Assembly: GCA_000002435.2 (NCBI GenBank)
Contig: CM018789.1
Length of the DNA: 64,000 bases
Strand: one strand, 5' to 3'
DNA from: Giardia intestinalis
Taxonomy: Eukaryota
Shown piece by piece: positions 25,219 through 46,369 of this stretch; position 1 is the stretch's first letter; each line of letters begins with the position of its first letter. Below the pieces are notes generated by a model that was given only the letters and a program-made list of their open reading frames with translations, was not told where the DNA came from and made no database searches. The translations under genes were made by a program, and so were the position numbers.

Positions 25219-26106
25219 ATGTGTGCAATGGTTTTTCTAACAGCAAATGACTCCCGTACACGGTACACTGTGATGAAAACATTGCCAGACTCTGTTACTG
25301 TCTATACCGCCGATACACGGAAAAACGTTCTTCGACTAAATAAGTATGGAGGAGTGGAATTGACAACCTTTAATAACGTTGTAACAGCGATGGATACTAT
25401 AACATCCGATAGTGTCGTTACACTAGGATGCCACAACGGTTCACTAATTATATGGGACACACGCTCTAAGGCTCACTCTATCGTCGAAGGTCACAAGGCG
25501 GCGGTGACTGTTCTCTGCAAGCATCCAGTGTATGAAGTAATCTCTGGCTCTGATGATGGGCTTATCGCAATCTGGGATATGCGCAGCTTTCGCGTGCCCG
25601 TCACGACCCTTTCTCACAGCCACGCGGTGACGTCGCTGCACGTCGCCGACAGCGCGCTGGTTTCCACCAGCATCGACGGGTCTGTGAAGGTCTGGGATCT
25701 GATAAGGAACGCCCTTCTTCACACACACGCCCAGCTGGCCCCCTCGTATCCCATTTTCGACTCCGCGCTCACCTGCAAGCAAGTGCTCTACACCGTCGGA
25801 ACCGACGGGCTCAACCTCTTGGCCATGAGAGGCAGCCTGCAGCCGCTGAGGGTGCAGAGGGTTGAACAGTTGAACAGCCAGCTGTGTCACCAACCCCCGT
25901 TTACACGATTACTCAACGCCCGTTCTGCCCTCTTTCTTGCAAACCACTACACGATCATGAAGGTATCTGATCAGTTAGAGATTGTAGACCAGTATTGTAG
26001 AAGCACAATGCCCATCTCTGAAACAGAGCCGCCTCCCATTGTACAGCTGTATAGCGACCACCTTCTGTACTCCTTGGATGATAAGATAATGGTCAGGCAG
26101 ATATAG
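25219..26106 (+). CDS. WD40-repeat protein (295 aa). Its 3' part lies inside the left arm of the inverted duplication.
   Basis: WD signatures SLIIWDTRS, GLIAIWDMRS and GSVKVWDL. ATG start. Confidence 0.7.
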   Translation: MCAMVFLTANDSRTRYTVMKTLPDSVTVYTADTRKNVLRLNKYGGVELTTFNNVVTAMDTITSDSVVTLGCHNGSLIIWDTRSKAHSIVEGHKAAVTVLCKHPVYEVISGSDDGLIAIWDMRSFRVPVTTLSHSHAVTSLHVADSALVSTSIDGSVKVWDLIRNALLHTHAQLAPSYPIFDSALTCKQVLYTVGTDGLNLLAMRGSLQPLRVQRVEQLNSQLCHQPPFTRLLNARSALFLANHYTIMKVSDQLEIVDQYCRSTMPISETEPPPIVQLYSDHLLYSLDDKIMVRQI

Positions 26107-26124
26107 GCCCGCGGACTCTCTGCT

Positions 26125-27543
26125 TTACTTCGACTGGAGGCTTGCTTGAAACGTTCGAGCGTCATGTAATTGTTGGACAGTACTCTTCCGAACAATCTTG
26201 TCCTGCCATCGACTAGCTGACTCGTTTCTAGAATCAATTGGAAGATTGTCGAGTACCGTGCCTCGTCGAAGGAGGTCTTTGCGAGAGTATTCCAAGATGT
26301 CTAGCTGGCTGACATCAGCATCATTCTCCGTGCTATTAAGAATGACATTTTCTGCGTTTGACGTAGCCAGTTGCTGTACTGCAACCTTTTTAAGACTAGG
26401 TTCAGAGGACAGTATGAGCTCTGACAGGGTACATGCATCTGGCTTCTCAGCAGAATTCTTCTTATCGCCGTGCTCACTTGCATGACTGGATTTGTTTGCG
26501 ACTAGCTTTTCGAAGAACCAAACTTCTCTGCCCCCGGAATCAAGAATGCAATTAGTTGCTTTCTTATAGCATAAAAGCCACTCCGAAAAGAGTCTGTGAT
26601 CATCCAGAACAGCATAGGCCTCCTCACATAGCCTTCTGATCATCGGGATGAGTGGGCACTTGGTCTCGATAATAGAGACATTCTTTTCGGCAAGACTTCT
26701 CCACTTGTTACTCAAGTTGTGGAATCGAGGGGTTTCTCGCACGGTGTCATGAACCCAATGGATAAGCTCTTCAAACACATAGACGCTTGGGGTGAAAGGG
26801 TGAATAAGAAGTCGGTGCATGGCCTCTGCTCGTAGGTAATTCCCTACTCCGTTGAACAATTCCTGAGACAAAAGAAGCCGGCATATGGGTTGTGAAAATA
26901 TCGACTTGGGTGGCACAATGAAAGACCCGTCAAGACCTATAGGAATATGTGACAGTTTGGACAGTATCTTGGACACATAGTCTAGGTACTGTGCCACAGG
27001 ATCAGGGGACCGTGCATGGTCGAAGTCTCCTACTCGCCAGTACATGGTCTCTGGCCGTGGCGAGCATACTGCTAACACAGCATCAGATGCCTCAAACAAG
27101 AGATGTGCGTTAGACTTCAAAGCTTCCTCTGGGGTTAAGAAGGTGTTGATACAGCCTGCTAATCCCAGGCCAATCACGATACTGGTTGGTATGGTAAGCG
27201 CCACAGCGTGATCTGAGTGTTCCCAGGGGCGGCTTAAAGCGGTTGTTTTGCACAAATCATAGGGTGTCTCTGAGGTGTCAGATGTATTTCTTTTCAGACG
27301 CACAAAAATACTCTTTGCCTCATTCCTAGGTGGATCAGCTGCCCGAGCCAGGTCAACTCGGAGCTGCTTGCCTCGAGATTCGCACCTTATGGTAAATGCT
27401 ACTTTTATGGAATCATCAAGGAACAAAGGTGGGAGGGCCTTATACACACACGCCCTCGAAGTAGAGACGTTAGTAAAGAGAGTGTGCTCTGCCTCAAACG
27501 TTATGCGTTCTGCGAAGGCTCGAACCTCAGGATGCTCTGGCAT
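26125..27543 (-). CDS. Fpg/Nei (NEIL)-family bifunctional DNA glycosylase/AP-lyase with an H2TH motif
   Basis: After the initiator Met the N-terminus reads PEHPEV (catalytic Pro2-Glu3, matching PELPEV in Fpg). A conserved RGKQL Lys sits about 59 residues in. H2TH reads LLLSQELFNGVGNYLRAEAMHRLLIHPFTPS, matching LLDQ..[23 protein letters not shown]. The track start at 27558 is TTG; the ATG at 27543 puts Pro at position 2. Confidence 0.75.
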   Translation of the reverse strand: MPEHPEVRAFAERITFEAEHTLFTNVSTSRACVYKALPPLFLDDSIKVAFTIRCESRGKQLRVDLARAADPPRNEAKSIFVRLKRNTSDTSETPYDLCKTTALSRPWEHSDHAVALTIPTSIVIGLGLAGCINTFLTPEEALKSNAHLLFEASDAVLAVCSPRPETMYWRVGDFDHARSPDPVAQYLDYVSKILSKLSHIPIGLDGSFIVPPKSIFSQPICRLLLSQELFNGVGNYLRAEAMHRLLIHPFTPSVYVFEELIHWVHDTVRETPRFHNLSNKWRSLAEKNVSIIETKCPLIPMIRRLCEEAYAVLDDHRLFSEWLLCYKKATNCILDSGGREVWFFEKLVANKSSHASEHGDKKNSAEKPDACTLSELILSSEPSLKKVAVQQLATSNAENVILNSTENDADVSQLDILEYSRKDLLRRGTVLDNLPIDSRNESASRWQDKIVRKSTVQQLHDARTFQASLQSK

Positions 27544-27547
27544 AAAA

Positions 27548-28072
27548 ATGGATAGCAACCCCCTCCTGGACTTTTTTGCTGCCCCACCACCTACCTCTCA
27601 GGAACTAGAAACACAACACTGGCCTTTTGGTGATGTGCACGCGCTCTTTAGGCATTTCAACGAGGCTTTTTTCGACAATTGCCTGAGAGATGTTGTGGTT
27701 CATTGGAGCAATAGGCTAACACGTTCTGCAGGTCTATGCAAATACAGAGGGACGCGAACAGAAGAGCATAGTCCTATTGTAATTATCCTATCTGCACCTC
27801 TACTCCAATATCGTTCACAACACGACCTGCTCGACGTGCTGGTGCATGAGATGATCCACGCCTACCTTTTCAGACTGAAGGTGTTCGAGCGAGTGCATCA
27901 CGGGCCCGTCTGGCACGCACAAGCGCACCGAATTAACCAGGCCGCTGGACTTACAATCCGTGCCTGCCACAACTACTACCAAGAGGTAAGATACATTGCG
28001 CACCAACGGGCTCTGAAGCGGGTTCCAGTCATTGATCTTAGCAATAGCACTATTGATCTCACCGATGATTAG
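27548..28072 (+). CDS. SprT-like zinc metalloprotease (Spartan/Wss1-type DNA-protein crosslink protease domain)
   Basis: LFRHFNEAFFDNCLRDVVVHWSNRLTRSAGLCKY...LLDVLVHEMIHAYLF...HGPVWHAQAHRINQAAGLTIRACHNYYQEV. This matches Spartan LFVQFNDQFFWGQLEAVEVKWSVRMTLCAGICSY...TLLHEMIHAYLF...HGPEF..HMHRIN. HEMIH zinc site. The track GTG start at 27275 was replaced by the ATG at 27548 (MDSNPLL). Confidence 0.8.
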   Translation: MDSNPLLDFFAAPPPTSQELETQHWPFGDVHALFRHFNEAFFDNCLRDVVVHWSNRLTRSAGLCKYRGTRTEEHSPIVIILSAPLLQYRSQHDLLDVLVHEMIHAYLFRLKVFERVHHGPVWHAQAHRINQAAGLTIRACHNYYQEVRYIAHQRALKRVPVIDLSNSTIDLTDD

Positions 28073-31000
28073 AGGTCTTGGGCGTGACGCCAACCACGAA
28101 GCTGTGAAGGTGTGCCACAACATGAATCTTCATGCATGGTTCCACGTGACTGCCTGTATATGATAAAGGCGATTTGCAGCTCTGCCTCTAAGTGTGTTAT
28201 GCTTTCAAATAACTTATACGTCATTCTTAGCTCCAAGTCGTGAATGCATGCTTCTTGAAATAATGTAAGAGCTTATTTTGCTTGCCAATTATCCTCCTCA
28301 TTCTTAGTGAGTCTGTGCACACCGCTTCTTATATATGAATTGCTTCTACACACCAGTATCACTGGTAGATTCTAGGGTACACAACGTGTTTCTGTACATG
28401 CTGGGACATCTTTCAACATTGCAGGTGGTACATACCATCCTGCATAGCCATCAGGGAATCTATTATTAGCCTATTATTAAAGTACTGTAAGAGCAATCAT
28501 GGACGGATATTAGTACTTTTCACGTAGGCCCTTAAAGTCGCCAGCTGTATACACGCTCCTCGGGGTTGTGGCCATCCTCCCTTGGGCTTCGTGCTTTTTG
28601 TAAGCATAGAGTGAAAGCACTTGCATTGGCAAACTAGGCAAACGCCAGATATGTCATGCTATGAACACGTTGAACGACGATGAATATCTTACAGAATAGG
28701 AAGATCTGCATCCAGCTATCGGTAACATAGACTTTCATAAGACATGTGAGCCGCACAGAAATACCACTGTAAATGTACTGAAAATCCACATGAGCATCGT
28801 CACATGGAGATAGAAAGCCATCTGAATGAACACTTTTGCGGGCTGCTTTGGTGCTTTGAAGAGACGCGAATGACTTTACGTCACTGTATGTTACAAACCC
28901 AACTGACCTTTCATGCCTTCCATGATGTAGTCTAGTCAGAACGAGCTGATTGTAGTCTTCCGATATATGCTTAAGGGCGCAAGGTGTAGATCAAATAGAT
29001 TGCTTTATTGCCTTCGAGAAAAGGACGGGCCTTGCTTTGCCAATACATAGATATGTGATAATAGACCAGGCAATCAGCAGTAAATGGAATACACGGCTAA
29101 TAGCTGCAAGACGCAGTCGTAAGCCTGGTTCTGCATGGGCAGCATCCAAATAGGGCCGTTGTCATGTCGGCTCTTTGCAGACGCATTGTGTACAGCAGTT
29201 ACGAGCTGCGCAACGGAAGGTCATAGGGGGTGAGGTTGTCTACTGCACCACGCCGCATAGAGGACAAATCAAGACCGACAGCACGAGAAAAGCGACAAGA
29301 ACAGTCGCTTTGTGTGCCTACTGGCAAGGACTTCGTGACAAACCCATATGGCGCAGAGCCTGGGATTGGCCTTGTCCACGTTCATGTTAGGGAGCGTGGG
29401 CCTTCAAGAGTTAGCCAGAAGTTGCACCAATTCTCAACTGGTACATGCCTTTATCCAGTGATGTCCAACGCGATGCTTTACATCCGTGCAAGCTTTGAGA
29501 TACTAATTTCACCGACTCGTTGTGACTCAAGGCGTCCAACTCGTTATAATATTGAGGCAAGGATTGAACTGAGTAACTGATTGCTAGGGAAATTATGCCA
29601 TCACTATCACAACTAGCTTGAATCGTGAGAGAAGTTTGTACTGACAAGATTAAGCGGCCCAACCAGCACATGAGAAGAGTCTGTCCCTTATGATACTTTG
29701 ACCACCAAAGGGAAGGTAATGGATCCACGGTCATTGTTTCTGATGTAGCAAGTAGCGCCTGCAATAGATGGCTAGATCATAAATGATATTATGGTTATGG
29801 CGTGTCACGCAATTGAGCACGAGTAAGATTGCAGACTGGCCCAACCTTAACTAGAGATCCAAACAAACAGACAACCAGCAGAGTAAAGATTGTAAGAGCA
29901 ACTAAACGTCAAATCTGTAAACGGCTTAAGTTTGGTGAGTGGCATGAAAAATGGTCACTGAGCCTATCGTTTTTAGCTAATGTGGAACTTTTAATCTTGT
30001 AAGGCTAAGGTTGTTTTATCTCTTGTTGCTGACAACAAGCCCCTGCATAAGCTACGTAATAATCATCTATACTACTGCCGCGCTACTGTTCTCTGGATAA
30101 GTATCGATTGACTAAAGACAGACCCGTTGTCATAGATACATTGTGAGAAGGCTGATACTAGAAGCTTGTCTGTCGAGTTTGCATGTTCTATTTATGGAGA
30201 CTTCCGATGGCAACCTTTATGTAGAGATATGGATGGTCTAGGAAACTGAGCCATTAGCGCTTCAGTCGCCGTCTTACAAAAAACAGATTGCAAAAAGTAG
30301 ATGCGAAGTAGGATATTTGGTAGTTGCTGATTAGTGGGCATGATACCCAAGAATCCATGGAGCCGTTACCCAATTTTCCAAATTACAATAAGCAGCTTGC
30401 TTTGTTGACCCGGGACTGGTATCAAAAGATGTCTGGTAATCACAGAATGCTTTTAAAGTGATCTTGTGTGGCAAAATGCTTATGACGTGAATGAAATGAG
30501 CTGTAGGTTAAAGCAGGCAGCTTCCTATACTCATAAAATCGTCCAGCAGAGTGTCCTACAGCCTTGTACGGTTATACTTGACCATCTATTATTTCCCAGC
30601 ATAAGCACAACAAGTCCTCATTACAAAAGTGGGCGCTTTATTCTTCATTCAATACCAGATTGCATATTATGCCAGACAATTATCATGCAACGGCTGATAA
30701 AGATTTATATGACCTGGCAGGACATACGAGTGCCGTTAACATTAAGGTGCGCGTAGATAGTGCATATTTGACCCAGCAAAGATAAAGTCAACCAGAGTCA
30801 GAAAAGGGGAAAGAGAAAATGGAAGCCACCATACTCCACAGACTTCTATCATGTTTTATACGCGTGGATGCTGAATTAACCAGGTGCTCAGACGCAAGGT
30901 ATTTGCTGTAAGACACTTAGGAGCTGTAGCTTGACGCATACAGGTGACATACTATAGTTATGCTGAATAACGCGGAGGTATCGATGAGTGGACGCACAAG

Positions 31001-32592
31001 TATTGAAGGCGATGAGCCACAGGGGCTTCTATGAACTGCTCACGGTGAGTGGAAGTACCGTAGATACCTTCACTACCAGGCACGCTTAACCCAATCTAGA
31101 ATTAGTATAAAGCATAGAGTTGGACGGACCTAGGTTGCGTCTAGTAAAACGTAGGACACTTCTAAGAGCTCAACTTAAGGATGGCGAGGCGGCCCTGTAA
31201 CCCTGCATAGCTGGCCTTGCATCCAATAAAGACTAGGGGCTGAGTGGCACATATGTTCGTCATCCAGCATGGCGAATAGCCCGTGGAGCGGCAAGATCAA
31301 TCTTTCCTAGACGAGCAACACGTAGTGAGTGTTCGACCAGTACCAATGGGCAAGGGTTAATTCTCGCCATAACTGACGCCCGGACGGCAGAAGCCAATAG
31401 GAAAGACAGCTCTTACCGGAGCGGTGCTGGGGATGCTCTGCAAGTCAGAGCCAGAAGGGCCTGGTAGCCATACTGGTGCCTGCTGTCGTCGGGCAACCCT
31501 GTTAAAGAAGCAGCGGCTCCTCGAGCGGGGCAGCTTAGGGGCCCACTACGTTCTCCTATTCTGCAGCGCATATTGTCTACTGGCAGGGAGCTGATGTCTT
31601 TCGTGGTTGCATGGTCCTGCTCACACCAGAGACAGAGCCAGACGACGGAGAGTAGGAGACTGACTCCCAGTTGAGATCTGCTTATTCCAGGCCCAACCAC
31701 ACCGCAGTATGCATCCACATCGATCTACGGTAGGTGGCGGGCAGCTTGCAGGGTGGAATTGGCAGCCTGGGCGAATTAAGGGCGGCGGATGTATTGCTGC
31801 CTCATTCCATCAATAGCATGGTTGGCTTGCGAGATGGAAGCAGTGGTTGCGGCGAAGGCACGTGAGGCGTCCAGATGAAGCGGACTATACAGATCGCTTA
31901 ACAGCATTAAAAGTTGAAATGGTTACACTGCCCGCTTGCAAAGGTACATGGTTCGGCCTGCGAACACTGCGTGTTTACTGACGCAGACTGGCCTATTGGC
32001 AGTGCCTAACTGTCCTTGCCGGTGGCATTGCACAGCGAGTGCCCTGGAGGCGCCATCATGACTACGCTTTTCTGCTCTTTTGCTTACAGAGGCCATTACT
32101 GTCTGTCCGCTCATGACACCATAAACACACAAGGTCAATCCCCCTGGCACTTTACTCAGAGGTGCGCCGGCTCTTTCGGAGAAGCGCTTCTCTGTGTAGC
32201 TGTCTAGTGAACAGACCAGACACGGTGGTGCTATCAGCCAAGCCACTGCTGGGCAGAGCACACGGCCTGTATCTGCTCGTCTCGTGCTCTAGCCAGCCAC
32301 CCCGCGTGAGCATCTGGAGGCGTGCCTGGACATATGCGTGGTATTCTGCGGTGTGCACGGTCTCGTGTCCGCACAGTAGGCCAGCCAGGGAGCGTGTGCA
32401 GGCACGTCATGTGGCACCACGTCCTTTGTGGAATGCTGGAGGACCACACAGGCGAGGGTCTACCATCAAGATACGGACACGTTGCTTCCTGACATGGAAG
32501 GTCAATGAGGCTATCCAGATGGCCCAGCCACGGTAGAAGGCTAGCAGATGTGATCGTATTGGCCACCAGCACTGTCACTAATACCAACATGC
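28073..32592. other. 4.5 kb ORF-free, moderately AT-rich stretch (no ORF above about 117 codons in any frame)
   Basis: Stop codons are dense in all six frames. This contrasts with the near-zero intergenic spacing elsewhere in the window. Confidence 0.7.
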
Positions 32593-35400: not shown

Positions 35401-35404
35401 ATGT

Positions 35405-35946: not shown

Positions 35947-37551
35947 GTTCGGTGGGCCATTGCGGCGGTGGGTGATCCCCTCTCTGTTTGCCAAGGTGGT
36001 TGTGTCTGATCCCCAGCCTTCGTTGCACTCCCGAGACACAGGCACCGACGATCGTGTCGTGTCCCCTGACTGAGCGCCTCCCTTGGCCCCTGCATGCCTC
36101 GGGCAGTACTGCTGCTCTGGTTGACTGGTACATGAGGGATGAGGCAGGCCATCGCAGCCTCTCCTGCTACTCGCTGATGCTCTGTGCGGGTCTGCTGGGC
36201 CCCTGGCATGCCCTGTCCAGTGCCTCGACGTAGTTCACCTCGGCCAGCAGGGGTGTGGATGAGCCGGTGGATGGGATGGGTTCTCTCAGGCCTCTAGTGT
36301 GATGGCCCAGAAGACTGGCACGGTGGGGCACTGGTGGCTGCACTGTCCCCGTGGTCAGCTGTGCTGCTCCTGGTGGGTCCTTGTCATGGAGCGCTGTGTG
36401 TTGTTCATAGGCAGAGGTGAGCCTCCTTGGTTTCAAGATGCTCTACCATGCAGAGAGGAGCACGCTGAGGGTCACCCATACCTCACATCTGCTGTGCCCG
36501 TTCGGGAGTTCCCGGTGTGGTCCACCAGGACCTTGACACCTCTCGTGGCTCTGATGACCCCTCGAGGAGAGCCGGGGTGTCCTATGCCAGGGGAGGCGTG
36601 CACCCTCCTGCATGAGCTGGGACCCACTGCACTGCCCTCAAGGAGGTCTGCTATGAGAGGCAGTGGGATGATTGACGGCCCCAGAGTGCGGTGGAGGGTG
36701 CTCGTGGTCATCTCTTGTGATCGGGCATCACTCTGATGGCCAGCTCTGTGCCTGTGTGGTGCTCAGAGGCCACCTGTCTGCCTCATCGCCTGCTGGACAG
36801 CCGGGTCTCTTGTGGTGTCCGAAGGCCTCCTCACTCCTCTGGCTGCTGCCCCCTCGGGTCATCAATGAAGACAGTCGAGGCCAGCGGAGTCTTCGGTGAG
36901 TCTGGTGCCTGCCTGGGTGTCATGGGGGCTGGCAGCTGTCAGGGCTCTGCCACTGCTCACCTGCCTGGAGTGTGCCTCCCTTGGACCTACTGTGCTGCGT
37001 GAGTCCTCTGGCTTCCTATCAGGCCCTGACTGTGAGGGTGACCCCACCTGGTCCTCTGATGCCCCTGTGGATGAGCATAGCAATGTGTCTGATTGAGGAT
37101 CTCTGGTGCCCGTGTCTGTTGCTGCCTCTCGGGTGCTCGGGTAGTTGCCTGGCACTCTCGTATGGGGGCACAGTCAGCGTGTCCCGAGCAGACTCCAGTC
37201 CTCTCTGGGTCCACACAGTCTGTTCGTGTGTGGATGATCCTCCTGCACTCAGGTCCATCTGTGCACACTATCACTCAGCCTCGAGAGCAGGCCAGTGCAG
37301 TCGCCAGGGTTGCTGTCAGAGGGAGTCGTCTGCCACTACATCGCTCGAGCAGACTCTACAGATCAGGCTGGCTGCTGTGCACCCTCATGGCAGGGCTGCC
37401 TGACTCCCCTTGGTCATCCTCTCTGTCCCGGTGTGCACGGCTCCTGAGGGTTGTCTGGGTGGAGGCACTCACAGACCACGAGCACACAGAGGGGTGAGTC
37501 ATAGATGGACAGCCATCAGTCACCACAGCTGCGATCACCCCAGTCTATCGA
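35947..37551. other. Unique 1.6 kb spacer between the inverted-repeat arms. GC-rich (about 60%) and strongly A-depleted on the + strand. Only short overlapping ORFs of low-complexity C/W/R/G/P-rich translation.
   Basis: No mirror copy exists. The composition continues that of the inner end of the left arm and flips abruptly at about 37552. Confidence 0.7.
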
Positions 37552-38073
37552 GGGACCAGGGGCACATACAGACACCCACCACCCGGTCCCACCAGTCCTC
37601 ACCGCCCATACCCCCGCCCCACCCACCAGCCGGCCCACTGAGACCCAAGTGACCGCGACTGTGGAAGCGCTGACCCAGAACCACAGCCGGACGGACACCG
37701 AGGGGCCCAGCCAGCGGAGAGCCCGATGGCAGCCCCTGACAGACGGGGGCATCTAAAAAAGACAGCGGCCCGGGCTTCACTCACCGTGAAGGAAGACCAA
37801 GGAGAGGCGCCACTGGTGGACCAGAGAGTCTGCGAGAAGGCCTGAACCCCGAAACGGCCGACGTGCACACCCAGACTGAGCACACACCCACAGAGCGACC
37901 GGAGAAGGTGCCAAGTTTTAGATACACTAATAAAGAGGAGTCCCTGCTTGCTGTCTACAACCAGTTCTCGCTCTCAGATTGGCCAAGACGTGGGCGAGAC
38001 TTACTCGTGGGATTTCTGGACGCTCCCACAGGCAGGGCCCCATCACAGTATAATATGCTTTATACAGTGACGC

Positions 38074-38088
38074 GTTTACTATCTAAGT
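38074..38088 (-). promoter_or_regulatory. Mirror copy of the VSP polyadenylation signal (ACTTAGATAGTAAAC on the - strand)
   Basis: Reverse complement of 35405-35419 at the symmetric position (sum 73493). Confidence 0.7.
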
Positions 38089-38092
38089 ACAT

Positions 38093-39379
38093 CTACGCTT
38101 TGCCCCTGCAGATGAACCACCAGCAGAGGAAGCCGACGAGTCCCCCGACGACGACGATGACAGCCACAGAGATGCCAGCGATGGCACCTGTGCTAAGGCC
38201 GCTCTTATTCGTGCTCCCGCCGGCACTGTCACCGTTCATGAGGTAGCAGAGAACGGAGCCAGTATTGCTAGATGGAGGAGCGCAGCTCATGCAGCCAGCA
38301 ACTCCCTTGACACTTCCACTGTCACTTTCACACGAAATACATGTGTTTGGCCCTGATCCGACCATGTAGTACCCAGTTGCACACGTTGTACAAGTATTTG
38401 CAATGTCTGCGGTCGAGCATGTCTTGCAGGTGAAATGACACGAGGGGCATACGTCAGAAGAACTAGGAGGAAGACCATTGGCACACGCCTGACATCCACC
38501 ATTGCTATCAGCTAGTGTACATATCTGTTTGCCTGGCTGTCTATCTGCCTGGTAACAGCCACCATTCTTGAGGAAGTAGCCCCCACTACAAGACGTGCAG
38601 GATCCACTGGTAACTTGTGTGCAGAACTGAGCACGCGCGTTGGCCGTACAGACCCCGTTCAGAGGAGCCTGAGTACCCACTGAGCACTGGGAGCAGTAGT
38701 CTGTCCCGCCGATCCTTGCCCCACAGACCTTACATCCGTTCTTGTCCGCCGTACACGCATCCCCGCAGGTGCCCCCTTGGGCAGGATCACCACCTCCATA
38801 TGTTAATGCCTTGCCTGCAGGACAAGCACTACACTGATTGTTGGCTGGCCCAACGCACTCAGCGCACTCAGGGCTGCATGGCTTACACTTCTTGTCAGTA
38901 TCTCCGTAGTATCCGCTGATGGCTGTGCAGTCATGTGCGCACTGGTTTGTAGGGGTGAGGTAGTCGCCATCATTACATTTAGTGCAGATTTCATTGCCTG
39001 TTTTGGGGTTGTCACAGGTCTTACAGTTGGGAGTATTGCACCGCGCTTCTGGGTTCTCGTTGCACTGGGTATTCCCGGCGCTCGGCGTGTATCCGTCCTC
39101 GCACTGCTCGCACTGCGTGTTGTCCGCGTTACACTGCTTGCAGTTTAGAATCTGGCAGGCGGACCCCGCGCCGTAGACAACAGAGTTATCAGCGCACACT
39201 CCGTCGATCAGCACGTGGCCCGCTTTGCACCTCATACAGACCTCGACGCCACGGACCGCCCTGCACCAGCCGGTTGCGCAGTTGGAGTGCTGGTGCCCCT
39301 TGCATTGTGCAGCGAGAGCGCTCATCAAAAAGCAAAGAACTAGTAGCAACATTGCGGCCCTGCTAGATCTATTAATCAT
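38093..39379 (-). CDS. VSP: VSP, second copy, 428 aa, with a single 39-aa repeat unit. Otherwise identical to the 935-aa copy.
   Basis: Same signal peptide, same post-repeat Cys-rich region, TM helix and CRGKA tail. The length difference of 1521 nt equals 13 x 117. Confidence 0.92.
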   Translation of the reverse strand: MINRSSRAAMLLLVLCFLMSALAAQCKGHQHSNCATGWCRAVRGVEVCMRCKAGHVLIDGVCADNSVVYGAGSACQILNCKQCNADNTQCEQCEDGYTPSAGNTQCNENPEARCNTPNCKTCDNPKTGNEICTKCNDGDYLTPTNQCAHDCTAISGYYGDTDKKCKPCSPECAECVGPANNQCSACPAGKALTYGGGDPAQGGTCGDACTADKNGCKVCGARIGGTDYCSQCSVGTQAPLNGVCTANARAQFCTQVTSGSCTSCSGGYFLKNGGCYQADRQPGKQICTLADSNGGCQACANGLPPSSSDVCPSCHFTCKTCSTADIANTCTTCATGYYMVGSGPNTCISCESDSGSVKGVAGCMSCAPPSSNTGSVLCYLMNGDSAGGSTNKSGLSTGAIAGISVAVIVVVGGLVGFLCWWFICRGKA

Positions 39380-42300
39380 GCATGTTGGTATTAGTGACAG
39401 TGCTGGTGGCCAATACGATCACATCTGCTAGCCTTCTACCGTGGCTGGGCCATCTGGATAGCCTCATTGACCTTCCATGTCAGGAAGCAACGTGTCCGTA
39501 TCTTGATGGTAGACCCTCGCCTGTGTGGTCCTCCAGCATTCCACAAAGGACGTGGTGCCACATGACGTGCCTGCACACGCTCCCTGGCTGGCCTACTGTG
39601 CGGACACGAGACCGTGCACACCGCAGAATACCACGCATATGTCCAGGCACGCCTCCAGATGCTCACGCGGGGTGGCTGGCTAGAGCACGAGACGAGCAGA
39701 TACAGGCCGTGTGCTCTGCCCAGCAGTGGCTTGGCTGATAGCACCACCGTGTCTGGTCTGTTCACTAGACAGCTACACAGAGAAGCGCTTCTCCGAAAGA
39801 GCCGGCGCACCTCTGAGTAAAGTGCCAGGGGGATTGACCTTGTGTGTTTATGGTGTCATGAGCGGACAGACAGTAATGGCCTCTGTAAGCAAAAGAGCAG
39901 AAAAGCGTAGTCATGATGGCGCCTCCAGGGCACTCGCTGTGCAATGCCACCGGCAAGGACAGTTAGGCACTGCCAATAGGCCAGTCTGCGTCAGTAAACA
40001 CGCAGTGTTCGCAGGCCGAACCATGTACCTTTGCAAGCGGGCAGTGTAACCATTTCAACTTTTAATGCTGTTAAGCGATCTGTATAGTCCGCTTCATCTG
40101 GACGCCTCACGTGCCTTCGCCGCAACCACTGCTTCCATCTCGCAAGCCAACCATGCTATTGATGGAATGAGGCAGCAATACATCCGCCGCCCTTAATTCG
40201 CCCAGGCTGCCAATTCCACCCTGCAAGCTGCCCGCCACCTACCGTAGATCGATGTGGATGCATACTGCGGTGTGGTTGGGCCTGGAATAAGCAGATCTCA
40301 ACTGGGAGTCAGTCTCCTACTCTCCGTCGTCTGGCTCTGTCTCTGGTGTGAGCAGGACCATGCAACCACGAAAGACATCAGCTCCCTGCCAGTAGACAAT
40401 ATGCGCTGCAGAATAGGAGAACGTAGTGGGCCCCTAAGCTGCCCCGCTCGAGGAGCCGCTGCTTCTTTAACAGGGTTGCCCGACGACAGCAGGCACCAGT
40501 ATGGCTACCAGGCCCTTCTGGCTCTGACTTGCAGAGCATCCCCAGCACCGCTCCGGTAAGAGCTGTCTTTCCTATTGGCTTCTGCCGTCCGGGCGTCAGT
40601 TATGGCGAGAATTAACCCTTGCCCATTGGTACTGGTCGAACACTCACTACGTGTTGCTCGTCTAGGAAAGATTGATCTTGCCGCTCCACGGGCTATTCGC
40701 CATGCTGGATGACGAACATATGTGCCACTCAGCCCCTAGTCTTTATTGGATGCAAGGCCAGCTATGCAGGGTTACAGGGCCGCCTCGCCATCCTTAAGTT
40801 GAGCTCTTAGAAGTGTCCTACGTTTTACTAGACGCAACCTAGGTCCGTCCAACTCTATGCTTTATACTAATTCTAGATTGGGTTAAGCGTGCCTGGTAGT
40901 GAAGGTATCTACGGTACTTCCACTCACCGTGAGCAGTTCATAGAAGCCCCTGTGGCTCATCGCCTTCAATACTTGTGCGTTCACTCATCGATACCTCCGC
41001 GTTATTCAGCATAACTATAGTATGTCACCTGTATGCGTCAAGCTACAGCTCCTAAGTGTCTTACAGCAAATACCTTGCGTCTGAGCACCTGGTTAATTCA
41101 GCATCCACGCGTATAAAACATGATAGAAGTCTGTGGAGTATGGTGGCTTCCATTTTCTCTTTCCCCTTTTCTGACTCTGGTTGACTTTATCTTTGCTGGG
41201 TCAAATATGCACTATCTACGCGCACCTTAATGTTAACGGCACTCGTATGTCCTGCCAGGTCATATAAATCTTTATCAGCCGTTGCATGATAATTGTCTGG
41301 CATAATATGCAATCTGGTATTGAATGAAGAATAAAGCGCCCACTTTTGTAATGAGGACTTGTTGTGCTTATGCTGGGAAATAATAGATGGTCAAGTATAA
41401 CCGTACAAGGCTGTAGGACACTCTGCTGGACGATTTTATGAGTATAGGAAGCTGCCTGCTTTAACCTACAGCTCATTTCATTCACGTCATAAGCATTTTG
41501 CCACACAAGATCACTTTAAAAGCATTCTGTGATTACCAGACATCTTTTGATACCAGTCCCGGGTCAACAAAGCAAGCTGCTTATTGTAATTTGGAAAATT
41601 GGGTAACGGCTCCATGGATTCTTGGGTATCATGCCCACTAATCAGCAACTACCAAATATCCTACTTCGCATCTACTTTTTGCAATCTGTTTTTTGTAAGA
41701 CGGCGACTGAAGCGCTAATGGCTCAGTTTCCTAGACCATCCATATCTCTACATAAAGGTTGCCATCGGAAGTCTCCATAAATAGAACATGCAAACTCGAC
41801 AGACAAGCTTCTAGTATCAGCCTTCTCACAATGTATCTATGACAACGGGTCTGTCTTTAGTCAATCGATACTTATCCAGAGAACAGTAGCGCGGCAGTAG
41901 TATAGATGATTATTACGTAGCTTATGCAGGGGCTTGTTGTCAGCAACAAGAGATAAAACAACCTTAGCCTTACAAGATTAAAAGTTCCACATTAGCTAAA
42001 AACGATAGGCTCAGTGACCATTTTTCATGCCACTCACCAAACTTAAGCCGTTTACAGATTTGACGTTTAGTTGCTCTTACAATCTTTACTCTGCTGGTTG
42101 TCTGTTTGTTTGGATCTCTAGTTAAGGTTGGGCCAGTCTGCAATCTTACTCGTGCTCAATTGCGTGACACGCCATAACCATAATATCATTTATGATCTAG
42201 CCATCTATTGCAGGCGCTACTTGCTACATCAGAAACAATGACCGTGGATCCATTACCTTCCCTTTGGTGGTCAAAGTATCATAAGGGACAGACTCTTCTC

Positions 42301-43899
42301 ATGTGCTGGTTGGGCCGCTTAATCTTGTCAGTACAAACTTCTCTCACGATTCAAGCTAGTTGTGATAGTGATGGCATAATTTCCCTAGCAATCAGTTACT
42401 CAGTTCAATCCTTGCCTCAATATTATAACGAGTTGGACGCCTTGAGTCACAACGAGTCGGTGAAATTAGTATCTCAAAGCTTGCACGGATGTAAAGCATC
42501 GCGTTGGACATCACTGGATAAAGGCATGTACCAGTTGAGAATTGGTGCAACTTCTGGCTAACTCTTGAAGGCCCACGCTCCCTAACATGAACGTGGACAA
42601 GGCCAATCCCAGGCTCTGCGCCATATGGGTTTGTCACGAAGTCCTTGCCAGTAGGCACACAAAGCGACTGTTCTTGTCGCTTTTCTCGTGCTGTCGGTCT
42701 TGATTTGTCCTCTATGCGGCGTGGTGCAGTAGACAACCTCACCCCCTATGACCTTCCGTTGCGCAGCTCGTAACTGCTGTACACAATGCGTCTGCAAAGA
42801 GCCGACATGACAACGGCCCTATTTGGATGCTGCCCATGCAGAACCAGGCTTACGACTGCGTCTTGCAGCTATTAGCCGTGTATTCCATTTACTGCTGATT
42901 GCCTGGTCTATTATCACATATCTATGTATTGGCAAAGCAAGGCCCGTCCTTTTCTCGAAGGCAATAAAGCAATCTATTTGATCTACACCTTGCGCCCTTA
43001 AGCATATATCGGAAGACTACAATCAGCTCGTTCTGACTAGACTACATCATGGAAGGCATGAAAGGTCAGTTGGGTTTGTAACATACAGTGACGTAAAGTC
43101 ATTCGCGTCTCTTCAAAGCACCAAAGCAGCCCGCAAAAGTGTTCATTCAGATGGCTTTCTATCTCCATGTGACGATGCTCATGTGGATTTTCAGTACATT
43201 TACAGTGGTATTTCTGTGCGGCTCACATGTCTTATGAAAGTCTATGTTACCGATAGCTGGATGCAGATCTTCCTATTCTGTAAGATATTCATCGTCGTTC
43301 AACGTGTTCATAGCATGACATATCTGGCGTTTGCCTAGTTTGCCAATGCAAGTGCTTTCACTCTATGCTTACAAAAAGCACGAAGCCCAAGGGAGGATGG
43401 CCACAACCCCGAGGAGCGTGTATACAGCTGGCGACTTTAAGGGCCTACGTGAAAAGTACTAATATCCGTCCATGATTGCTCTTACAGTACTTTAATAATA
43501 GGCTAATAATAGATTCCCTGATGGCTATGCAGGATGGTATGTACCACCTGCAATGTTGAAAGATGTCCCAGCATGTACAGAAACACGTTGTGTACCCTAG
43601 AATCTACCAGTGATACTGGTGTGTAGAAGCAATTCATATATAAGAAGCGGTGTGCACAGACTCACTAAGAATGAGGAGGATAATTGGCAAGCAAAATAAG
43701 CTCTTACATTATTTCAAGAAGCATGCATTCACGACTTGGAGCTAAGAATGACGTATAAGTTATTTGAAAGCATAACACACTTAGAGGCAGAGCTGCAAAT
43801 CGCCTTTATCATATACAGGCAGTCACGTGGAACCATGCATGAAGATTCATGTTGTGGCACACCTTCACAGCTTCGTGGTTGGCGTCACGCCCAAGACCT
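39380..43899. other. Mirror copy of the 4.5 kb ORF-free stretch
   Basis: Small track ORFs (68, 118, 124, 112, 63, 101, 96, 117, 116, 71 aa) mirror those of 28073-32592 exactly. Confidence 0.7.
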
Positions 43900-44424
43900 C
43901 TAATCATCGGTGAGATCAATAGTGCTATTGCTAAGATCAATGACTGGAACCCGCTTCAGAGCCCGTTGGTGCGCAATGTATCTTACCTCTTGGTAGTAGT
44001 TGTGGCAGGCACGGATTGTAAGTCCAGCGGCCTGGTTAATTCGGTGCGCTTGTGCGTGCCAGACGGGCCCGTGATGCACTCGCTCGAACACCTTCAGTCT
44101 GAAAAGGTAGGCGTGGATCATCTCATGCACCAGCACGTCGAGCAGGTCGTGTTGTGAACGATATTGGAGTAGAGGTGCAGATAGGATAATTACAATAGGA
44201 CTATGCTCTTCTGTTCGCGTCCCTCTGTATTTGCATAGACCTGCAGAACGTGTTAGCCTATTGCTCCAATGAACCACAACATCTCTCAGGCAATTGTCGA
44301 AAAAAGCCTCGTTGAAATGCCTAAAGAGCGCGTGCACATCACCAAAAGGCCAGTGTTGTGTTTCTAGTTCCTGAGAGGTAGGTGGTGGGGCAGCAAAAAA
44401 GTCCAGGAGGGGGTTGCTATCCAT
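43900..44424 (-). CDS. SprT-like zinc metalloprotease, second copy
   Basis: Identical translation to 27548..28072. ATG at 44422-44424 on the - strand. Confidence 0.8.
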   Translation of the reverse strand: MDSNPLLDFFAAPPPTSQELETQHWPFGDVHALFRHFNEAFFDNCLRDVVVHWSNRLTRSAGLCKYRGTRTEEHSPIVIILSAPLLQYRSQHDLLDVLVHEMIHAYLFRLKVFERVHHGPVWHAQAHRINQAAGLTIRACHNYYQEVRYIAHQRALKRVPVIDLSNSTIDLTDD

Positions 44425-44428
44425 TTTT

Positions 44429-45847
44429 ATGCCAGAGCATCCTGAGGTTCGAGCCTTCGCAGAACGCATAACGTTTGAGGCAGAGCACACTCTCTTTACT
44501 AACGTCTCTACTTCGAGGGCGTGTGTGTATAAGGCCCTCCCACCTTTGTTCCTTGATGATTCCATAAAAGTAGCATTTACCATAAGGTGCGAATCTCGAG
44601 GCAAGCAGCTCCGAGTTGACCTGGCTCGGGCAGCTGATCCACCTAGGAATGAGGCAAAGAGTATTTTTGTGCGTCTGAAAAGAAATACATCTGACACCTC
44701 AGAGACACCCTATGATTTGTGCAAAACAACCGCTTTAAGCCGCCCCTGGGAACACTCAGATCACGCTGTGGCGCTTACCATACCAACCAGTATCGTGATT
44801 GGCCTGGGATTAGCAGGCTGTATCAACACCTTCTTAACCCCAGAGGAAGCTTTGAAGTCTAACGCACATCTCTTGTTTGAGGCATCTGATGCTGTGTTAG
44901 CAGTATGCTCGCCACGGCCAGAGACCATGTACTGGCGAGTAGGAGACTTCGACCATGCACGGTCCCCTGATCCTGTGGCACAGTACCTAGACTATGTGTC
45001 CAAGATACTGTCCAAACTGTCACATATTCCTATAGGTCTTGACGGGTCTTTCATTGTGCCACCCAAGTCGATATTTTCACAACCCATATGCCGGCTTCTT
45101 TTGTCTCAGGAATTGTTCAACGGAGTAGGGAATTACCTACGAGCAGAGGCCATGCACCGACTTCTTATTCACCCTTTCACCCCAAGCGTCTATGTGTTTG
45201 AAGAGCTTATCCATTGGGTTCATGACACCGTGCGAGAAACCCCTCGATTCCACAACTTGAGTAACAAGTGGAGAAGTCTTGCCGAAAAGAATGTCTCTAT
45301 TATCGAGACCAAGTGCCCACTCATCCCGATGATCAGAAGGCTATGTGAGGAGGCCTATGCTGTTCTGGATGATCACAGACTCTTTTCGGAGTGGCTTTTA
45401 TGCTATAAGAAAGCAACTAATTGCATTCTTGATTCCGGGGGCAGAGAAGTTTGGTTCTTCGAAAAGCTAGTCGCAAACAAATCCAGTCATGCAAGTGAGC
45501 ACGGCGATAAGAAGAATTCTGCTGAGAAGCCAGATGCATGTACCCTGTCAGAGCTCATACTGTCCTCTGAACCTAGTCTTAAAAAGGTTGCAGTACAGCA
45601 ACTGGCTACGTCAAACGCAGAAAATGTCATTCTTAATAGCACGGAGAATGATGCTGATGTCAGCCAGCTAGACATCTTGGAATACTCTCGCAAAGACCTC
45701 CTTCGACGAGGCACGGTACTCGACAATCTTCCAATTGATTCTAGAAACGAGTCAGCTAGTCGATGGCAGGACAAGATTGTTCGGAAGAGTACTGTCCAAC
45801 AATTACATGACGCTCGAACGTTTCAAGCAAGCCTCCAGTCGAAGTAA
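44429..45847 (+). CDS. Fpg/Nei-family DNA glycosylase, second copy
   Basis: Identical translation to 26125..27543. ATG at 44429, again 4 nt from the SprT ATG (CATttttATG). Confidence 0.75.
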   Translation: MPEHPEVRAFAERITFEAEHTLFTNVSTSRACVYKALPPLFLDDSIKVAFTIRCESRGKQLRVDLARAADPPRNEAKSIFVRLKRNTSDTSETPYDLCKTTALSRPWEHSDHAVALTIPTSIVIGLGLAGCINTFLTPEEALKSNAHLLFEASDAVLAVCSPRPETMYWRVGDFDHARSPDPVAQYLDYVSKILSKLSHIPIGLDGSFIVPPKSIFSQPICRLLLSQELFNGVGNYLRAEAMHRLLIHPFTPSVYVFEELIHWVHDTVRETPRFHNLSNKWRSLAEKNVSIIETKCPLIPMIRRLCEEAYAVLDDHRLFSEWLLCYKKATNCILDSGGREVWFFEKLVANKSSHASEHGDKKNSAEKPDACTLSELILSSEPSLKKVAVQQLATSNAENVILNSTENDADVSQLDILEYSRKDLLRRGTVLDNLPIDSRNESASRWQDKIVRKSTVQQLHDARTFQASLQSK

Positions 45848-45865
45848 AGCAGAGAGTCCGCGGGC

Positions 45866-46369
45866 CTATATCTGCCTGACCATTATCTTATCATCCAAGG
45901 AGTACAGAAGGTGGTCGCTATACAGCTGTACAATGGGAGGCGGCTCTGTTTCAGAGATGGGCATTGTGCTTCTACAATACTGGTCTACAATCTCTAACTG
46001 ATCAGATACCTTCATGATCGTGTAGTGGTTTGCAAGAAAGAGGGCAGAACGGGCGTTGAGTAATCGTGTAAACGGGGGTTGGTGACACAGCTGGCTGTTC
46101 AACTGTTCAACCCTCTGCACCCTCAGCGGCTGCAGGCTGCCTCTCATGGCCAAGAGGTTGAGCCCGTCGGTTCCGACGGTGTAGAGCACTTGCTTGCAGG
46201 TGAGCGCGGAGTCGAAAATGGGATACGAGGGGGCCAGCTGGGCGTGTGTGTGAAGAAGGGCGTTCCTTATCAGATCCCAGACCTTCACAGACCCGTCGAT
46301 GCTGGTGGAAACCAGCGCGCTGTCGGCGACGTGCAGCGACGTCACCGCGTGGCTGTGAGAAAGGGTCGT
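45866..46369 (-). pseudogene. 3' fragment (about 165 codons) of the WD40 gene, truncated at the outer duplication breakpoint
   Basis: Track ORF 45866..46399 matches 25219..26106 from TTLSHSHAV to the stop. Its first 10 residues (MVHAFPPHPA) are unrelated junction sequence. Confidence 0.7.

What the first reader, a model, noticed from the sequence alone, without database searches (positions are those of the whole stretch)
25603..46369. About 20.8 kb near-perfect inverted duplication with a 1.6 kb unique centre and a breakpoint inside a WD40 gene
All ORF translations in the two arms are identical, including a 477-aa and a 265-aa protein. The coordinates are exactly mirrored. The outer left edge (25603) lies inside an intact WD40 gene, while the outer right edge (46369) leaves only a 3' fragment. 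So the left arm is the original context and the right arm is a fold-back copy. Such high arm identity implies a very recent event, active gene conversion, or an assembly artefact. It doubles VSP, glycosylase and protease gene dosage and creates a long palindrome prone to hairpin or cruciform formation and breakage.
Basis: seen in the sequence. Interest (0 to 1): 0.8.

Follow-up and report, generated by a model that had tools for sequence, protein, structure and literature searches.

The report
Old, self-correcting Giardia VSP palindrome
The 20.8-kb inverted duplication is real, but it is a catalogued tail-to-tail surface-antigen (VSP) gene pair of Giardia WB, and comparison with other Giardia lineages shows an old palindrome whose arms are kept identical by copying from each other, not a recent accident or an assembly error.

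Summary
The inverted repeat exists (25597-46375) around a unique 1,652-bp centre, but it is not exactly mirrored. The left arm is 10,324 bp and the right 8,803 bp. The left VSP gene carries 14 copies of a 117-bp coding repeat and the right carries one (926 vs 419 aa). Otherwise the arms differ at 2 bases plus a frayed inner edge.

The locus is Giardia intestinalis WB, the vsp87.1/87.2 tail-to-tail pair listed in 2010. The reference annotation already carries both glycosylase copies.

Independent short-read contigs cross or stop exactly at both outer junctions, so those are not artefacts. A lineage about 1.4% diverged (probably sub-assemblage AII) has the same junctions. It shows 75 fixed differences from both WB arms in 5.4 kb, where the WB arms differ at 2. 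Assemblage E (P15) and an assemblage-B-like lineage also have an inverted repeat here. Its right end always lies 13-20 nt past the same tRNA-Gly gene, but the left boundary differs: inside the WD40 gene in A, inside SprT in E, and 697 nt past SprT in B-like.

Best reading: an old palindrome homogenised by arm-to-arm gene conversion, whose outer boundary moved and captured two DNA-repair genes in assemblage A. This is a known kind of feature, with a moderately interesting evolutionary result.

The parts
25597..35920 (.). Left arm of the palindrome (10,324 nt). It holds the WD40 3' part, glycosylase, SprT-like gene, a gene-poor stretch, the VSP and its 3' flank.
37573..46375 (.). Right arm (8,803 nt). 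It is the reverse complement of the left arm, apart from 13 missing 117-bp repeats and 2 substitutions.
35921..37572 (.). Unique spacer, 1,652 nt, 61% G+C, with no Pfam hit in its ORFs. Its edges (to about 35947 and 37546) are decayed arm sequence. Positions 36132-36612 resemble, across three reading frames, an ORF annotated in another Giardia assembly (P0044).
25219..26106 (+). Intact WD40-repeat gene (295 aa, KAE8301636). The left outer boundary falls after codon 126.
45866..46375 (-). Truncated copy of the WD40 gene (residues 127-295). The ORF 45866-46399 gains a chance ATG from the flank.
26125..27543 (-). Endonuclease VIII-like (Fpg/NEIL-type) glycosylase gene, 472 aa, left copy.
44429..45847 (+). 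Identical second copy of the glycosylase gene (KAE8301637 and KAE8301642 share this sequence).
27548..28072 (+). SprT-like metalloprotease gene, 174 aa, left copy. It is divergent from the glycosylase gene, with 4 nt between the start codons.
43900..44424 (-). Identical second copy of the SprT-like gene.
28073..32619 (.). Gene-poor stretch upstream of the left VSP, with no ORF of 120 aa or more before about 32.1 kb. Its mirror is 39353-43899. It evolves fast between lineages (about 71% identity to P15) yet is identical between arms.
32620..35400 (+). Left VSP gene, 926 aa from the CAATGTT initiator ATG (ORF from 32593). It has 14 x 39-aa repeats, ends in CRGKA, and has AGTAAA 14 nt after the stop codon.
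38093..39352 (-). Right VSP gene, 419 aa (KAE8301640; ORF to 39379 = XP_001707111.1). It is the same protein with a single repeat.
32808..34437 (+). 117-bp tandem array, 13.9 copies, 100% identical to each other. The right arm has one unit at about 39053-39170.
46391..46463 (-). tRNA-Gly(TCC). Its 3' end is 15 nt from the right outer junction. The gene and its T-run are conserved in WB, P15 and the B-like lineage, and the arm/flank breakpoint lies 13-20 nt beyond it in all three.

Best explanation
This is the vsp87.1/87.2 tail-to-tail VSP gene pair of Giardia intestinalis WB, seen at full length as a 20.8-kb palindrome. The palindrome is old, not recent. Its two arms are kept almost identical by repeated arm-to-arm (intrachromosomal, non-allelic) gene conversion, in which a break in one arm is repaired from the other arm.

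The outer boundary has moved during evolution. The right end stays pinned just past a tRNA-Gly gene. The copied segment reaches 697 nt past SprT in a B-like lineage, into SprT in assemblage E, and into the WD40 gene in assemblage A. Assemblage A therefore carries two intact copies of a NEIL-like glycosylase and a SprT-like protease, plus a WD40 gene fragment.

The most likely route for boundary movement is a break at the arm/flank border, with repair synthesis templated by the other arm running past the old border and then rejoining next to the tRNA. The 117-bp coding repeat array changes length faster than conversion evens it out, so the two VSPs differ (14 vs 1 repeats).

Shown: the structure, the junctions in independent data, co-divergence of both arms between lineages, and the different boundaries.

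Inferred: gene conversion as the process, the direction of boundary movement (expansion rather than loss), and the break-repair route.
For: Structure.

Identity of the locus:
- The proteins match Giardia WB C6 entries on a 1,485,438-bp contig, including two accessions for the identical glycosylase.
- Adam et al. 2010 (PMC2996952) list vsp87.1/87.2 as a tail-to-tail identical pair with a 117-nt repeat and a 3' divergence point at 514 nt. Here perfect identity ends at 35914 = stop codon 35400 + 514.
- The gap between the ORFs is 2,692 bp, within the 2,526-2,813 bp range of convergent pairs in Xu et al. 2020 (PMC7000408).

Junctions in independent reads:
- L017 is a WB-identical right-flank contig that stops at 46341, which is 30 nt (k-1) past the 46371 arm-specific base.
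- L016 crosses the right junction (46927-45083) and L001-L010 cross the left junction.

Concerted evolution:
- In the lineage of L029-L038, contigs linked to the left flank (L029, L032, L033, L036), contigs linked to the right flank (L030, L035) and arm-only 5,412-nt contigs (L037, L038) all end at the same boundary.
- Over 25597-31008 there are 75 fixed differences from both WB arms. The WB arms differ at 2 sites, and left-linked and right-linked contigs differ at 1-6 sites (no site partitioned by side), none of which separates left from right.
- In the 853 nt shared by the arms of three lineages, arm-to-arm differences are 0, 0 and 0. WB differs from lineage 2 at 21 sites and from P15 at 199.

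P15: the left contig end L041 1-846 is 100% identical, inverted, to L039 10696-11541, which abuts the tRNA flank.

B-like lineage, single sample SRR3177835: the last 30 nt of right-flank contig L044 are the reverse complement of the first 30 nt of left contig L043. Both flanks therefore run into one shared arm.

Breakpoints: 16, 13 and 20 nt after the tRNA 3' end on the flank side. On the arm side they lie in WD40, in SprT, and 697 nt past SprT.
Against: - No read depth and no long reads could be examined. The continuity of each whole arm in one molecule rests on the PacBio-based assembly plus overlapping short-read contigs.
- Short-read graph assemblies collapse identical repeats and can pop single-base bubbles, so 'identical arms' in lineage 2 and the 846/846 identity in the 454-era P15 contigs may hide a few differences.
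- The lineage labels (AII, B) are inferred from divergence (about 1% AI-AII in PMC4570179; 75-78% nt identity for B-like), not from sample metadata.
- The interior of the P15 locus does not match WB. The orthologous VSP has its tail, not its head, next to the arm segment, and unrelated genes follow. The repeat may therefore not be the same palindrome in detail.
- In the B-like lineage only 30 nt of the arm are known.
- Each assemblage has its own pair of breakpoints, which independent re-formation would also give.
- No conversion tract was observed directly.
Confidence: 0.8

Rival explanations
1. Recurrent independent formation. The site next to the tRNA-Gly gene is a break or template-switch hot spot. 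An inverted copy of the neighbouring VSP region has been made afresh in each assemblage, so the repeats in A, E and B are not inherited from one ancestral palindrome. High arm identity in E and B would then reflect youth.
For: Each assemblage has a different arm-side breakpoint and a slightly different flank-side breakpoint (16, 13 and 20 nt after the tRNA). The interior of the P15 locus is arranged differently from WB. Only 30 nt of the B-like arm are known.
Against: Within assemblage A the same junction is shared by two lineages whose arms have co-diverged at 75 sites while staying identical within each genome. Homogenisation is therefore needed there in any case. Three independent inverted duplications ending within 7 nt of each other on the flank side is less economical than one palindrome with a moving boundary.
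Confidence: 0.12
2. A single, very recent fold-back or template-switch duplication in the WB lineage.
For: Arm identity is 99.97%. One breakpoint lies inside a gene and leaves a 3' fragment. There is an inverted copy around a short unique spacer.
Against: The same right junction occurs in contigs 0.6-1.9% diverged from WB, with both arms sharing 75 lineage-specific differences. Inverted repeats sit at the same site in P15 and in a B-like lineage.
Confidence: 0.04
3. Assembly artefact. Either a single-copy region was falsely duplicated, or an inversion polymorphism between chromosome copies was stitched into a false palindrome.
For: Long identical repeats are classic mis-assembly sites. No read depth could be checked. 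Xu et al. 2020 remark that about 20 kb may be the largest duplication their reads could resolve.
Against: Independent short-read contigs reach or cross both outer junctions in several samples and lineages. The convergent VSP pair was found independently in the 2007/2010 Sanger assembly, with the same 514-nt divergence point and with unequal repeat numbers. An inversion allele would give a WD40-5'/spacer junction and no tail-to-tail VSP centre.
Confidence: 0.03

Closest known systems
Identical inverted VSP gene pairs of Giardia intestinalis WB (vsp1267 pair; 14 pairs in Adam et al. 2010, PMC2996952; 19 pairs in Xu et al. 2020, PMC7000408; 20 pairs in bioRxiv 10.1101/2022.03.07.483299)
   Same: Convergent VSP genes with the CAATGTT initiator and CRGKA tail. 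The gap between ORFs is 2,692 bp (class range about 2.4-3.2 kb). There is an abrupt 3' divergence about 514 nt after the stop codon. This very pair is listed as vsp87.1/87.2 with a 117-nt repeat.
   Different: The two ORFs are not identical here (14 vs 1 repeats), so the pair is missing from the 2020 table of duplicated pairs. The upstream identity, not reported for tail-to-tail pairs in 2010, runs 7.0 kb and includes two intact non-VSP genes and a gene fragment. Those papers treat the pairs as recent duplications or transposition products, whereas the comparison here indicates an old, homogenised structure.
Identical VSP pairs of Giardia muris (Xu et al. 2020, Microb Genom, PMC7641422)
   Same: Seven identical pairs, head-to-head or tail-to-tail, with intervening sequence holding pseudogene remnants. 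The arrangement is therefore a genus-wide habit.
   Different: This is a different species and different loci. No orthology to this locus was tested.
Palindromes of the human and primate Y chromosome (P1-P8), maintained by arm-to-arm gene conversion (my own knowledge: Rozen et al. 2003, Nature)
   Same: Inverted arms around a unique spacer. Arm identity of about 99.97% is far above the divergence between orthologous arms of related lineages. The arms are older than the lineage split, and the genome has little or no sexual recombination.
   Different: The Y palindromes are much larger (9 kb to 1.45 Mb arms), sit on a mammalian sex chromosome and carry testis genes. Here the cargo is a surface-antigen gene, and the organism is a tetraploid, binucleate protist.
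Plastid genome inverted repeats with boundary expansion and contraction (my own knowledge: Goulding et al. 1996)
   Same: Copy correction keeps the two repeats identical. The boundary shifts between lineages and leaves a truncated gene copy at one border (here the WD40 and SprT fragments). Whole neighbouring genes become duplicated when the boundary moves.
   Different: That is an organelle genome with multicopy circular or branched molecules and flip-flop recombination of the single-copy regions. Here the structure is a nuclear chromosome-internal locus.
Fold-back or template-switch inverted duplications (breakage-fusion-bridge, FoSTeS/MMBIR 'DUP-INV/DUP' structures; my own knowledge)
   Same: An inverted copy separated from the original by a short unique spacer, with a breakpoint inside a gene. 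This is a plausible way for the palindrome to have started and for the boundary to have been extended.
   Different: Those are recent, usually unstable events seen in single clones or patients. This structure is shared by diverged lineages.

Membership tests
Giardia tail-to-tail identical VSP pair | Two VSP genes (signal peptide, CXXC-rich, C-terminal CRGKA; Pfam PF03302) | tested here: met
   Both ORFs hit PF03302 (E 1e-100 and 1e-91) and end in CRGKA.
Giardia tail-to-tail identical VSP pair | Convergent orientation with about 2.4-3.2 kb between the ORFs | tested here: met
   The stop codons end at 35400 (+) and 38093 (-), leaving 2,692 bp between them.
Giardia tail-to-tail identical VSP pair | Identical coding sequences in the two members | tested here: not met
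   926 vs 419 aa. The sequences are identical except for 13 extra 39-aa repeats in the left copy. Adam 2010 nevertheless lists the pair as TTIPa/TTIPb_TR117.
Giardia tail-to-tail identical VSP pair | Flanks identical up to an abrupt divergence point a few hundred nt past the stop codon | tested here: met
   Identity is perfect for 514 nt and near-perfect for 520 nt past the stop codon. The published value for pair 87 is 514.
Palindrome maintained by arm-to-arm gene conversion (concerted evolution) | Inverted arms around a non-palindromic spacer | tested here: met
Palindrome maintained by arm-to-arm gene conversion (concerted evolution) | Arms within a genome are much more alike than orthologous arms of lineages that share the same junctions | tested here: met
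   2 arm-to-arm differences against 75 fixed differences between lineages in 5,412 nt. 0/0/0 against 21 and 199 in 853 nt.
Palindrome maintained by arm-to-arm gene conversion (concerted evolution) | Directly observed conversion tracts, or spacer inversion by arm crossover | not testable with these tools
   This needs long reads, clone lineages or population haplotypes.
Recent fold-back inverted duplication | Absent from related lineages (private to the clone or strain) | tested here: not met
   The same junction is present in a lineage about 1.4% diverged. An inverted repeat is present at the same site in P15 and in a B-like lineage.
Assembly artefact | Junctions unsupported by data independent of the assembly | tested here: not met
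   The outer junctions are supported by L016, L017, L011-L014, L029-L036. The centre is supported by the 2010 catalogue. Depth was not tested.

The most novel reading that the evidence does not exclude
The 'cryptic' identical inverted VSP pairs of Giardia may in general be old, positionally conserved palindromes rather than recent duplications or transposition products. On this reading their arms are kept identical by arm-to-arm gene conversion and their borders creep outward, duplicating neighbouring housekeeping genes. At this locus a NEIL-like glycosylase and a SprT-like protease are duplicated in assemblage A only, with the far border pinned at a tRNA gene. That would give a largely asexual, tetraploid parasite a built-in way to proof-read selected antigen genes, comparable to Y-chromosome palindromes. 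The convergent arrangement could also feed the antisense/RNAi control of VSP expression.
Probability: 0.55. Interest if true: 0.55.

Novelty: already known. Interest (0 to 1): 0.4.

Why it matters
The object itself is ordinary for Giardia. Inverted identical VSP pairs have been catalogued since 1991 and 2010, and this one is in the list.

The useful part is what the comparison adds. The literature I could search calls these pairs 'cryptic' and explains them as recent duplications or transposition (PMC2996952; bioRxiv 10.1101/2022.03.07.483299). At this locus the pair is older than the AI/AII split, and probably older than the split of assemblages A, E and B, yet its arms are still identical.

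Three things follow.
- Ongoing intrachromosomal gene conversion acts in a parasite whose sexuality is debated.
- Housekeeping genes next to VSP pairs can change copy number between assemblages. Here two DNA-repair genes are doubled in assemblage A.
- Read mapping, SNP calling and 'recombination' scans around VSP loci need care, because paralogous conversion can mimic exchange between strains.

Tried and rejected
1. Exact-protein look-ups that found nothing: the 192-aa GTG-start version of the Rrp15-like ORF and the 428-aa VSP ORF. The 935-aa VSP ORF is not in the collection.

2. I first suspected the right junction might be missing from most WB data. The full WD40 gene, which crosses the left junction, is on contigs in 127 data blocks, while the ORF crossing the right junction is on a single contig.
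- I dropped this as evidence about the DNA. WB-identical right-flank contigs either stop 4-90 nt past the Rrp15 poly(A) signal (L015, L018, L019; typical of transcript assemblies) or stop exactly k-1 nt past the arm-specific base (L017).
- Library types could not be checked, so this remains an inference.

3. I tested whether the spacer is itself a decayed palindrome. Only about 30 nt at each edge are. The core scores no better than shuffles or than the direct-orientation control.

4. I looked for coding or RNA content in the spacer and arms.
- Pfam finds nothing in eight spacer ORFs.
- Rfam finds only the tRNA.
- One database ORF (P0044, named 'Ser/Thr kinase, partial') matches the spacer across three frames but has no kinase domain. 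It shows only that a related non-coding sequence exists in another Giardia assembly.

5. GC-biased conversion was considered. The outer arms have flank-like G+C (0.44-0.48), and the G+C-rich zone includes the non-repeated spacer. There is therefore no signal.

6. Microhomology at the three arm/flank junctions: none convincing.

7. No inverted repeat lies inside the P15 contig stretch L039 itself. The P15 repeat is split between two contigs.

Full report
OBSERVATION

A long inverted repeat is present, and it is far beyond chance. The repeat finder reports two perfectly complementary blocks: 25597-32961 with 39011-46375 (7,365 nt), and 34323-35920 with 37573-39170 (1,598 nt). Self-BLAST agrees.

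The two blocks are in different registers. Their coordinate sums are 71972 and 73493, a shift of 1,521 nt. The cause is a 117-bp tandem repeat, present in 13.9 perfect copies in the left arm (32808-34437) and once in the right arm.

The arms are therefore 10,324 nt (25597-35920) and 8,803 nt (37573-46375), around a 1,652-nt centre (35921-37572). Apart from the array length, the arms differ only as follows:
- T/C at 25601/46371;
- G/A at 30991/40981;
- two mismatches in the last six bases of the inner edge.

The spacer core has no inverted self-similarity above shuffled controls. 'Exactly mirrored' and 'all ORF translations identical' are not correct.

GENE CONTENT

From outside to inside, each arm carries:
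- the last 170 codons of a WD40-repeat gene, intact only on the left (25219-26106);
- an Fpg/NEIL-type glycosylase gene of 472 aa;
- a divergently oriented SprT-like metalloprotease gene of 174 aa, with only 4 nt between the two start codons;
- about 4.5 kb with no sizeable ORF;
- a VSP gene with its 3' flank.

The two VSP genes are convergent, tail to tail. Both start at an ATG inside the VSP initiator motif CAATGTT and end in CRGKA. They differ by exactly 13 x 39 residues, 926 vs 419 aa.

The right arm ends 15 nt from the 3' end of a tRNA-Gly(TCC) gene (46391-46463, minus strand). Rrp15-like, Sld5-like and M16 peptidase genes follow.

IDENTITY OF THE LOCUS

Exact-sequence look-up places the proteins in Giardia intestinalis WB clone C6, on a 1,485,438-bp contig. 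The glycosylase sequence carries two protein accessions (KAE8301637 and KAE8301642). The reference annotation therefore already holds both copies.

Adam et al. 2010 (PMC2996952) catalogued 14 identical inverted VSP pairs in WB. Their table lists vsp87.1 (GL50803_112647) and vsp87.2 as a tail-to-tail pair with a 117-nt repeat. Their 3' divergence point for pair 87 is 514 nt, and here perfect identity ends exactly 514 nt after the stop codon.

For tail-to-tail pairs they could not give a 5' divergence point, because contigs ended in the repeats.

Xu et al. 2020 (PMC7000408) list 19 duplicated VSP pairs in the PacBio assembly. Convergent pairs lie 2,526-2,813 bp apart, and here the gap is 2,692 bp. 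This pair is not in their table, presumably because the two ORFs differ in length. They also state that multi-gene duplications of up to 20 kb exist.

A 2022 preprint notes that the few identical duplicated genes in WB are mostly cysteine-rich proteins and hypothetical genes next to duplicated VSPs. It attributes the pairs to duplication driven by transposition.

The feature is therefore a known kind, and this instance is already catalogued.

IS IT AN ARTEFACT?

Contigs assembled independently from public sequencing runs bear on both outer junctions.

- Right junction, WB-identical data. A right-flank contig (L017) stops at 46341, exactly 30 nt (k-1 for the k=31 graph) past the arm-specific base 46371. 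That is what a graph assembler does where sequence becomes shared with a second copy. Another contig (L016) runs straight across the right junction.
- Left junction, WB-identical data. Contigs L001-L010 cross the left junction.
- The centre. The tail-to-tail VSP centre, with unequal repeat numbers, was seen independently in the Sanger-era assembly.

I could not examine read depth or long reads. An asymmetry puzzled me at first: many contigs cross the left junction and almost none cross the right. It is best explained by transcript-derived assemblies, but I could not verify library types.

AGE AND MECHANISM

Second lineage in assemblage A. This lineage is defined by a variant glycosylase (P0002) and differs from WB by 0.6-1.9%. 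That matches the roughly 1% reported between sub-assemblages AI and AII (PMC4570179). The lineage has contigs joined to the left flank, contigs joined to the right flank, and arm-only contigs of 5,412 nt. All have the boundary at the same base as in WB.

Over those 5,412 nt, 75 sites are fixed for a base that differs from both WB arms, while the WB arms differ from each other at 2 sites. Within the second lineage, left-linked and right-linked contigs differ at 1-6 sites (no site partitioned by side), none of which separates left from right. If the arms had evolved independently since before the split, they should differ at about 75 sites or more. Both arms have changed together, which is the signature of concerted evolution.

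Assemblage E (isolate P15).
- The right flank is collinear with WB to within 6 nt of the junction.
- It then continues not into the WD40 fragment but into the middle of SprT and the gene-poor stretch.
- The P15 contig carrying the intact PUF-WD40-glycosylase-SprT row ends 846 nt into that same segment. Those 846 nt are 100% identical, in inverted orientation, to the copy next to the tRNA.
- P15 differs from WB at 199 of about 850 aligned positions in this segment.

B-like lineage. In a lineage at assemblage-B-like distance (75-78% nucleotide identity), two contigs from one sample converge. The last 30 nt of the right-flank contig are the reverse complement of the first 30 nt of the left contig. 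This is the k-1 overlap expected when two different flanks run into one shared inverted arm. There the left boundary lies 697 nt beyond the SprT stop codon, and WD40, glycosylase and SprT are single-copy.

Boundaries. The flank-side breakpoints lie 16, 13 and 20 nt after the tRNA 3' end in WB, P15 and the B-like lineage.

MOST LIKELY EXPLANATION

The locus is an old palindrome. Breaks in one arm are repaired from the other arm, which erases differences.

At least twice, repair synthesis or a template switch at the outer border changed how much of the left-hand neighbourhood is copied. The right end stayed next to the tRNA gene, either because losing the tRNA is not tolerated or because the tRNA gene is a break hot spot. 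This last point is inference. The result in assemblage A is a second intact copy of two DNA-repair genes and a WD40 gene fragment.

The direction of movement (expansion from B-like to E to A) is suggested by the usual view that A and E are closer to each other than to B. It is not proven.

The repeat array length escapes homogenisation, or changes faster than conversion acts, which gives two size variants of one antigen.

RESERVATIONS

- Collapsed short-read assemblies can hide a few arm differences.
- The P15 identity comes from 454-era contigs.
- Lineage names are inferred from divergence.
- Only 30 nt of the B-like arm are known.
- In P15 the orthologous VSP has a clearly related N-terminus but sits with its tail toward the arm segment and unrelated genes beyond its head. 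The interior of the structure is therefore not the same in E, or that contig is misjoined.
- Independent re-formation of an inverted copy at a hot spot in each assemblage remains a possible account of the E and B data. It cannot explain the AI/AII result.

COMPARISON WITH WHAT IS KNOWN

- As an object, this is a member of the Giardia inverted VSP pair class. It meets all class features except strict ORF identity.
- As a process, it behaves like Y-chromosome palindromes (arm-to-arm conversion with arms older than the species split).
- It also behaves like plastid inverted repeats (copy correction with borders that move and leave truncated genes at the edge). These two comparisons rest on my own knowledge of that literature.
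- I found no paper in the searchable library that describes concerted evolution or cross-assemblage conservation of Giardia VSP pairs. The library is incomplete.

VERDICT

Gene conversion is supported. A recent event and an assembly artefact are not.
- The feature is already known.
- The added evolutionary result is of moderate interest.

Noticed in passing
window 46391-46463 (minus strand): A tRNA-Gly(TCC) gene sits 15 nt from the right outer junction. The gene and its T-run are conserved base for base in WB, P15 and a B-like lineage, while the surrounding intergenic DNA diverges. All three arm/flank breakpoints lie 13-20 nt beyond it.
   Followed up: partly
window 27543/27548 (and mirror 44424/44429): The NEIL-like glycosylase and SprT-like protease genes are both linked to DNA-damage repair. 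They are divergent with only 4 nt between their start codons, so each promoter must lie inside the other gene. The arrangement is the same in P15 (L041) and in the B-like lineage (L042).
   Followed up: partly
L039 14255-20549 (P15, ACVC01000194.1): The P15 orthologue of this VSP (494 aa, three 105-nt repeats) is flipped relative to the arm segment next to it. It is followed by genes (198 aa; 482 aa with a zf-C2H2 hint) that have no counterpart in the window. This is either a different palindrome interior in assemblage E or a misjoined contig.
   Followed up: partly
window 32808-34437: All 13.9 copies of the 117-bp VSP repeat are identical to each other, which points to very recent expansion or in-array homogenisation. 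Older records of the same pair have about 5-6 copies (623-aa vsp87.1) and 1 copy (XP_001707111.1, 428 aa).
   Followed up: partly
window about 31008-31032 (mirror about 40940-40964): WB-identical and lineage-2 contigs, including arm-only ones, stop at 31008 or 31031, after passing the 30991 G/A arm difference. This hints at allelic variants near 31009 and 31032 among the chromosome copies that the window does not show.
   Followed up: no
L031 1-338 (lineage 2) vs window 38939-39170 / 34323-34554: In the lineage about 1.4% diverged, the region upstream of the VSP is about 98% identical to WB. Just past the repeat, inside the VSP, identity falls to 85% and then to no match. The antigen body has been replaced or has diverged rapidly while its surroundings stayed put.
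   Followed up: no
window 36132-36612 (spacer): An ORF annotated in another Giardia duodenalis assembly as 'Serine/threonine protein kinase, partial' (P0044, no kinase domain by Pfam) matches the spacer at 56-69% amino-acid identity (main segments) across three reading frames. A related non-coding spacer therefore exists elsewhere, either the orthologue or the centre of another VSP pair.
   Followed up: partly
window 45866-46399 (minus strand): The truncated WD40 copy picks up an ATG from the flank and forms a 177-aa ORF. It was called as a gene on only one public contig, and no named NCBI entry carries this exact sequence.
   Followed up: partly
window 7762-7811: A short 18-20-nt tandem repeat (2.5 copies, 84% matches) was reported by Tandem Repeats Finder.
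   Followed up: no
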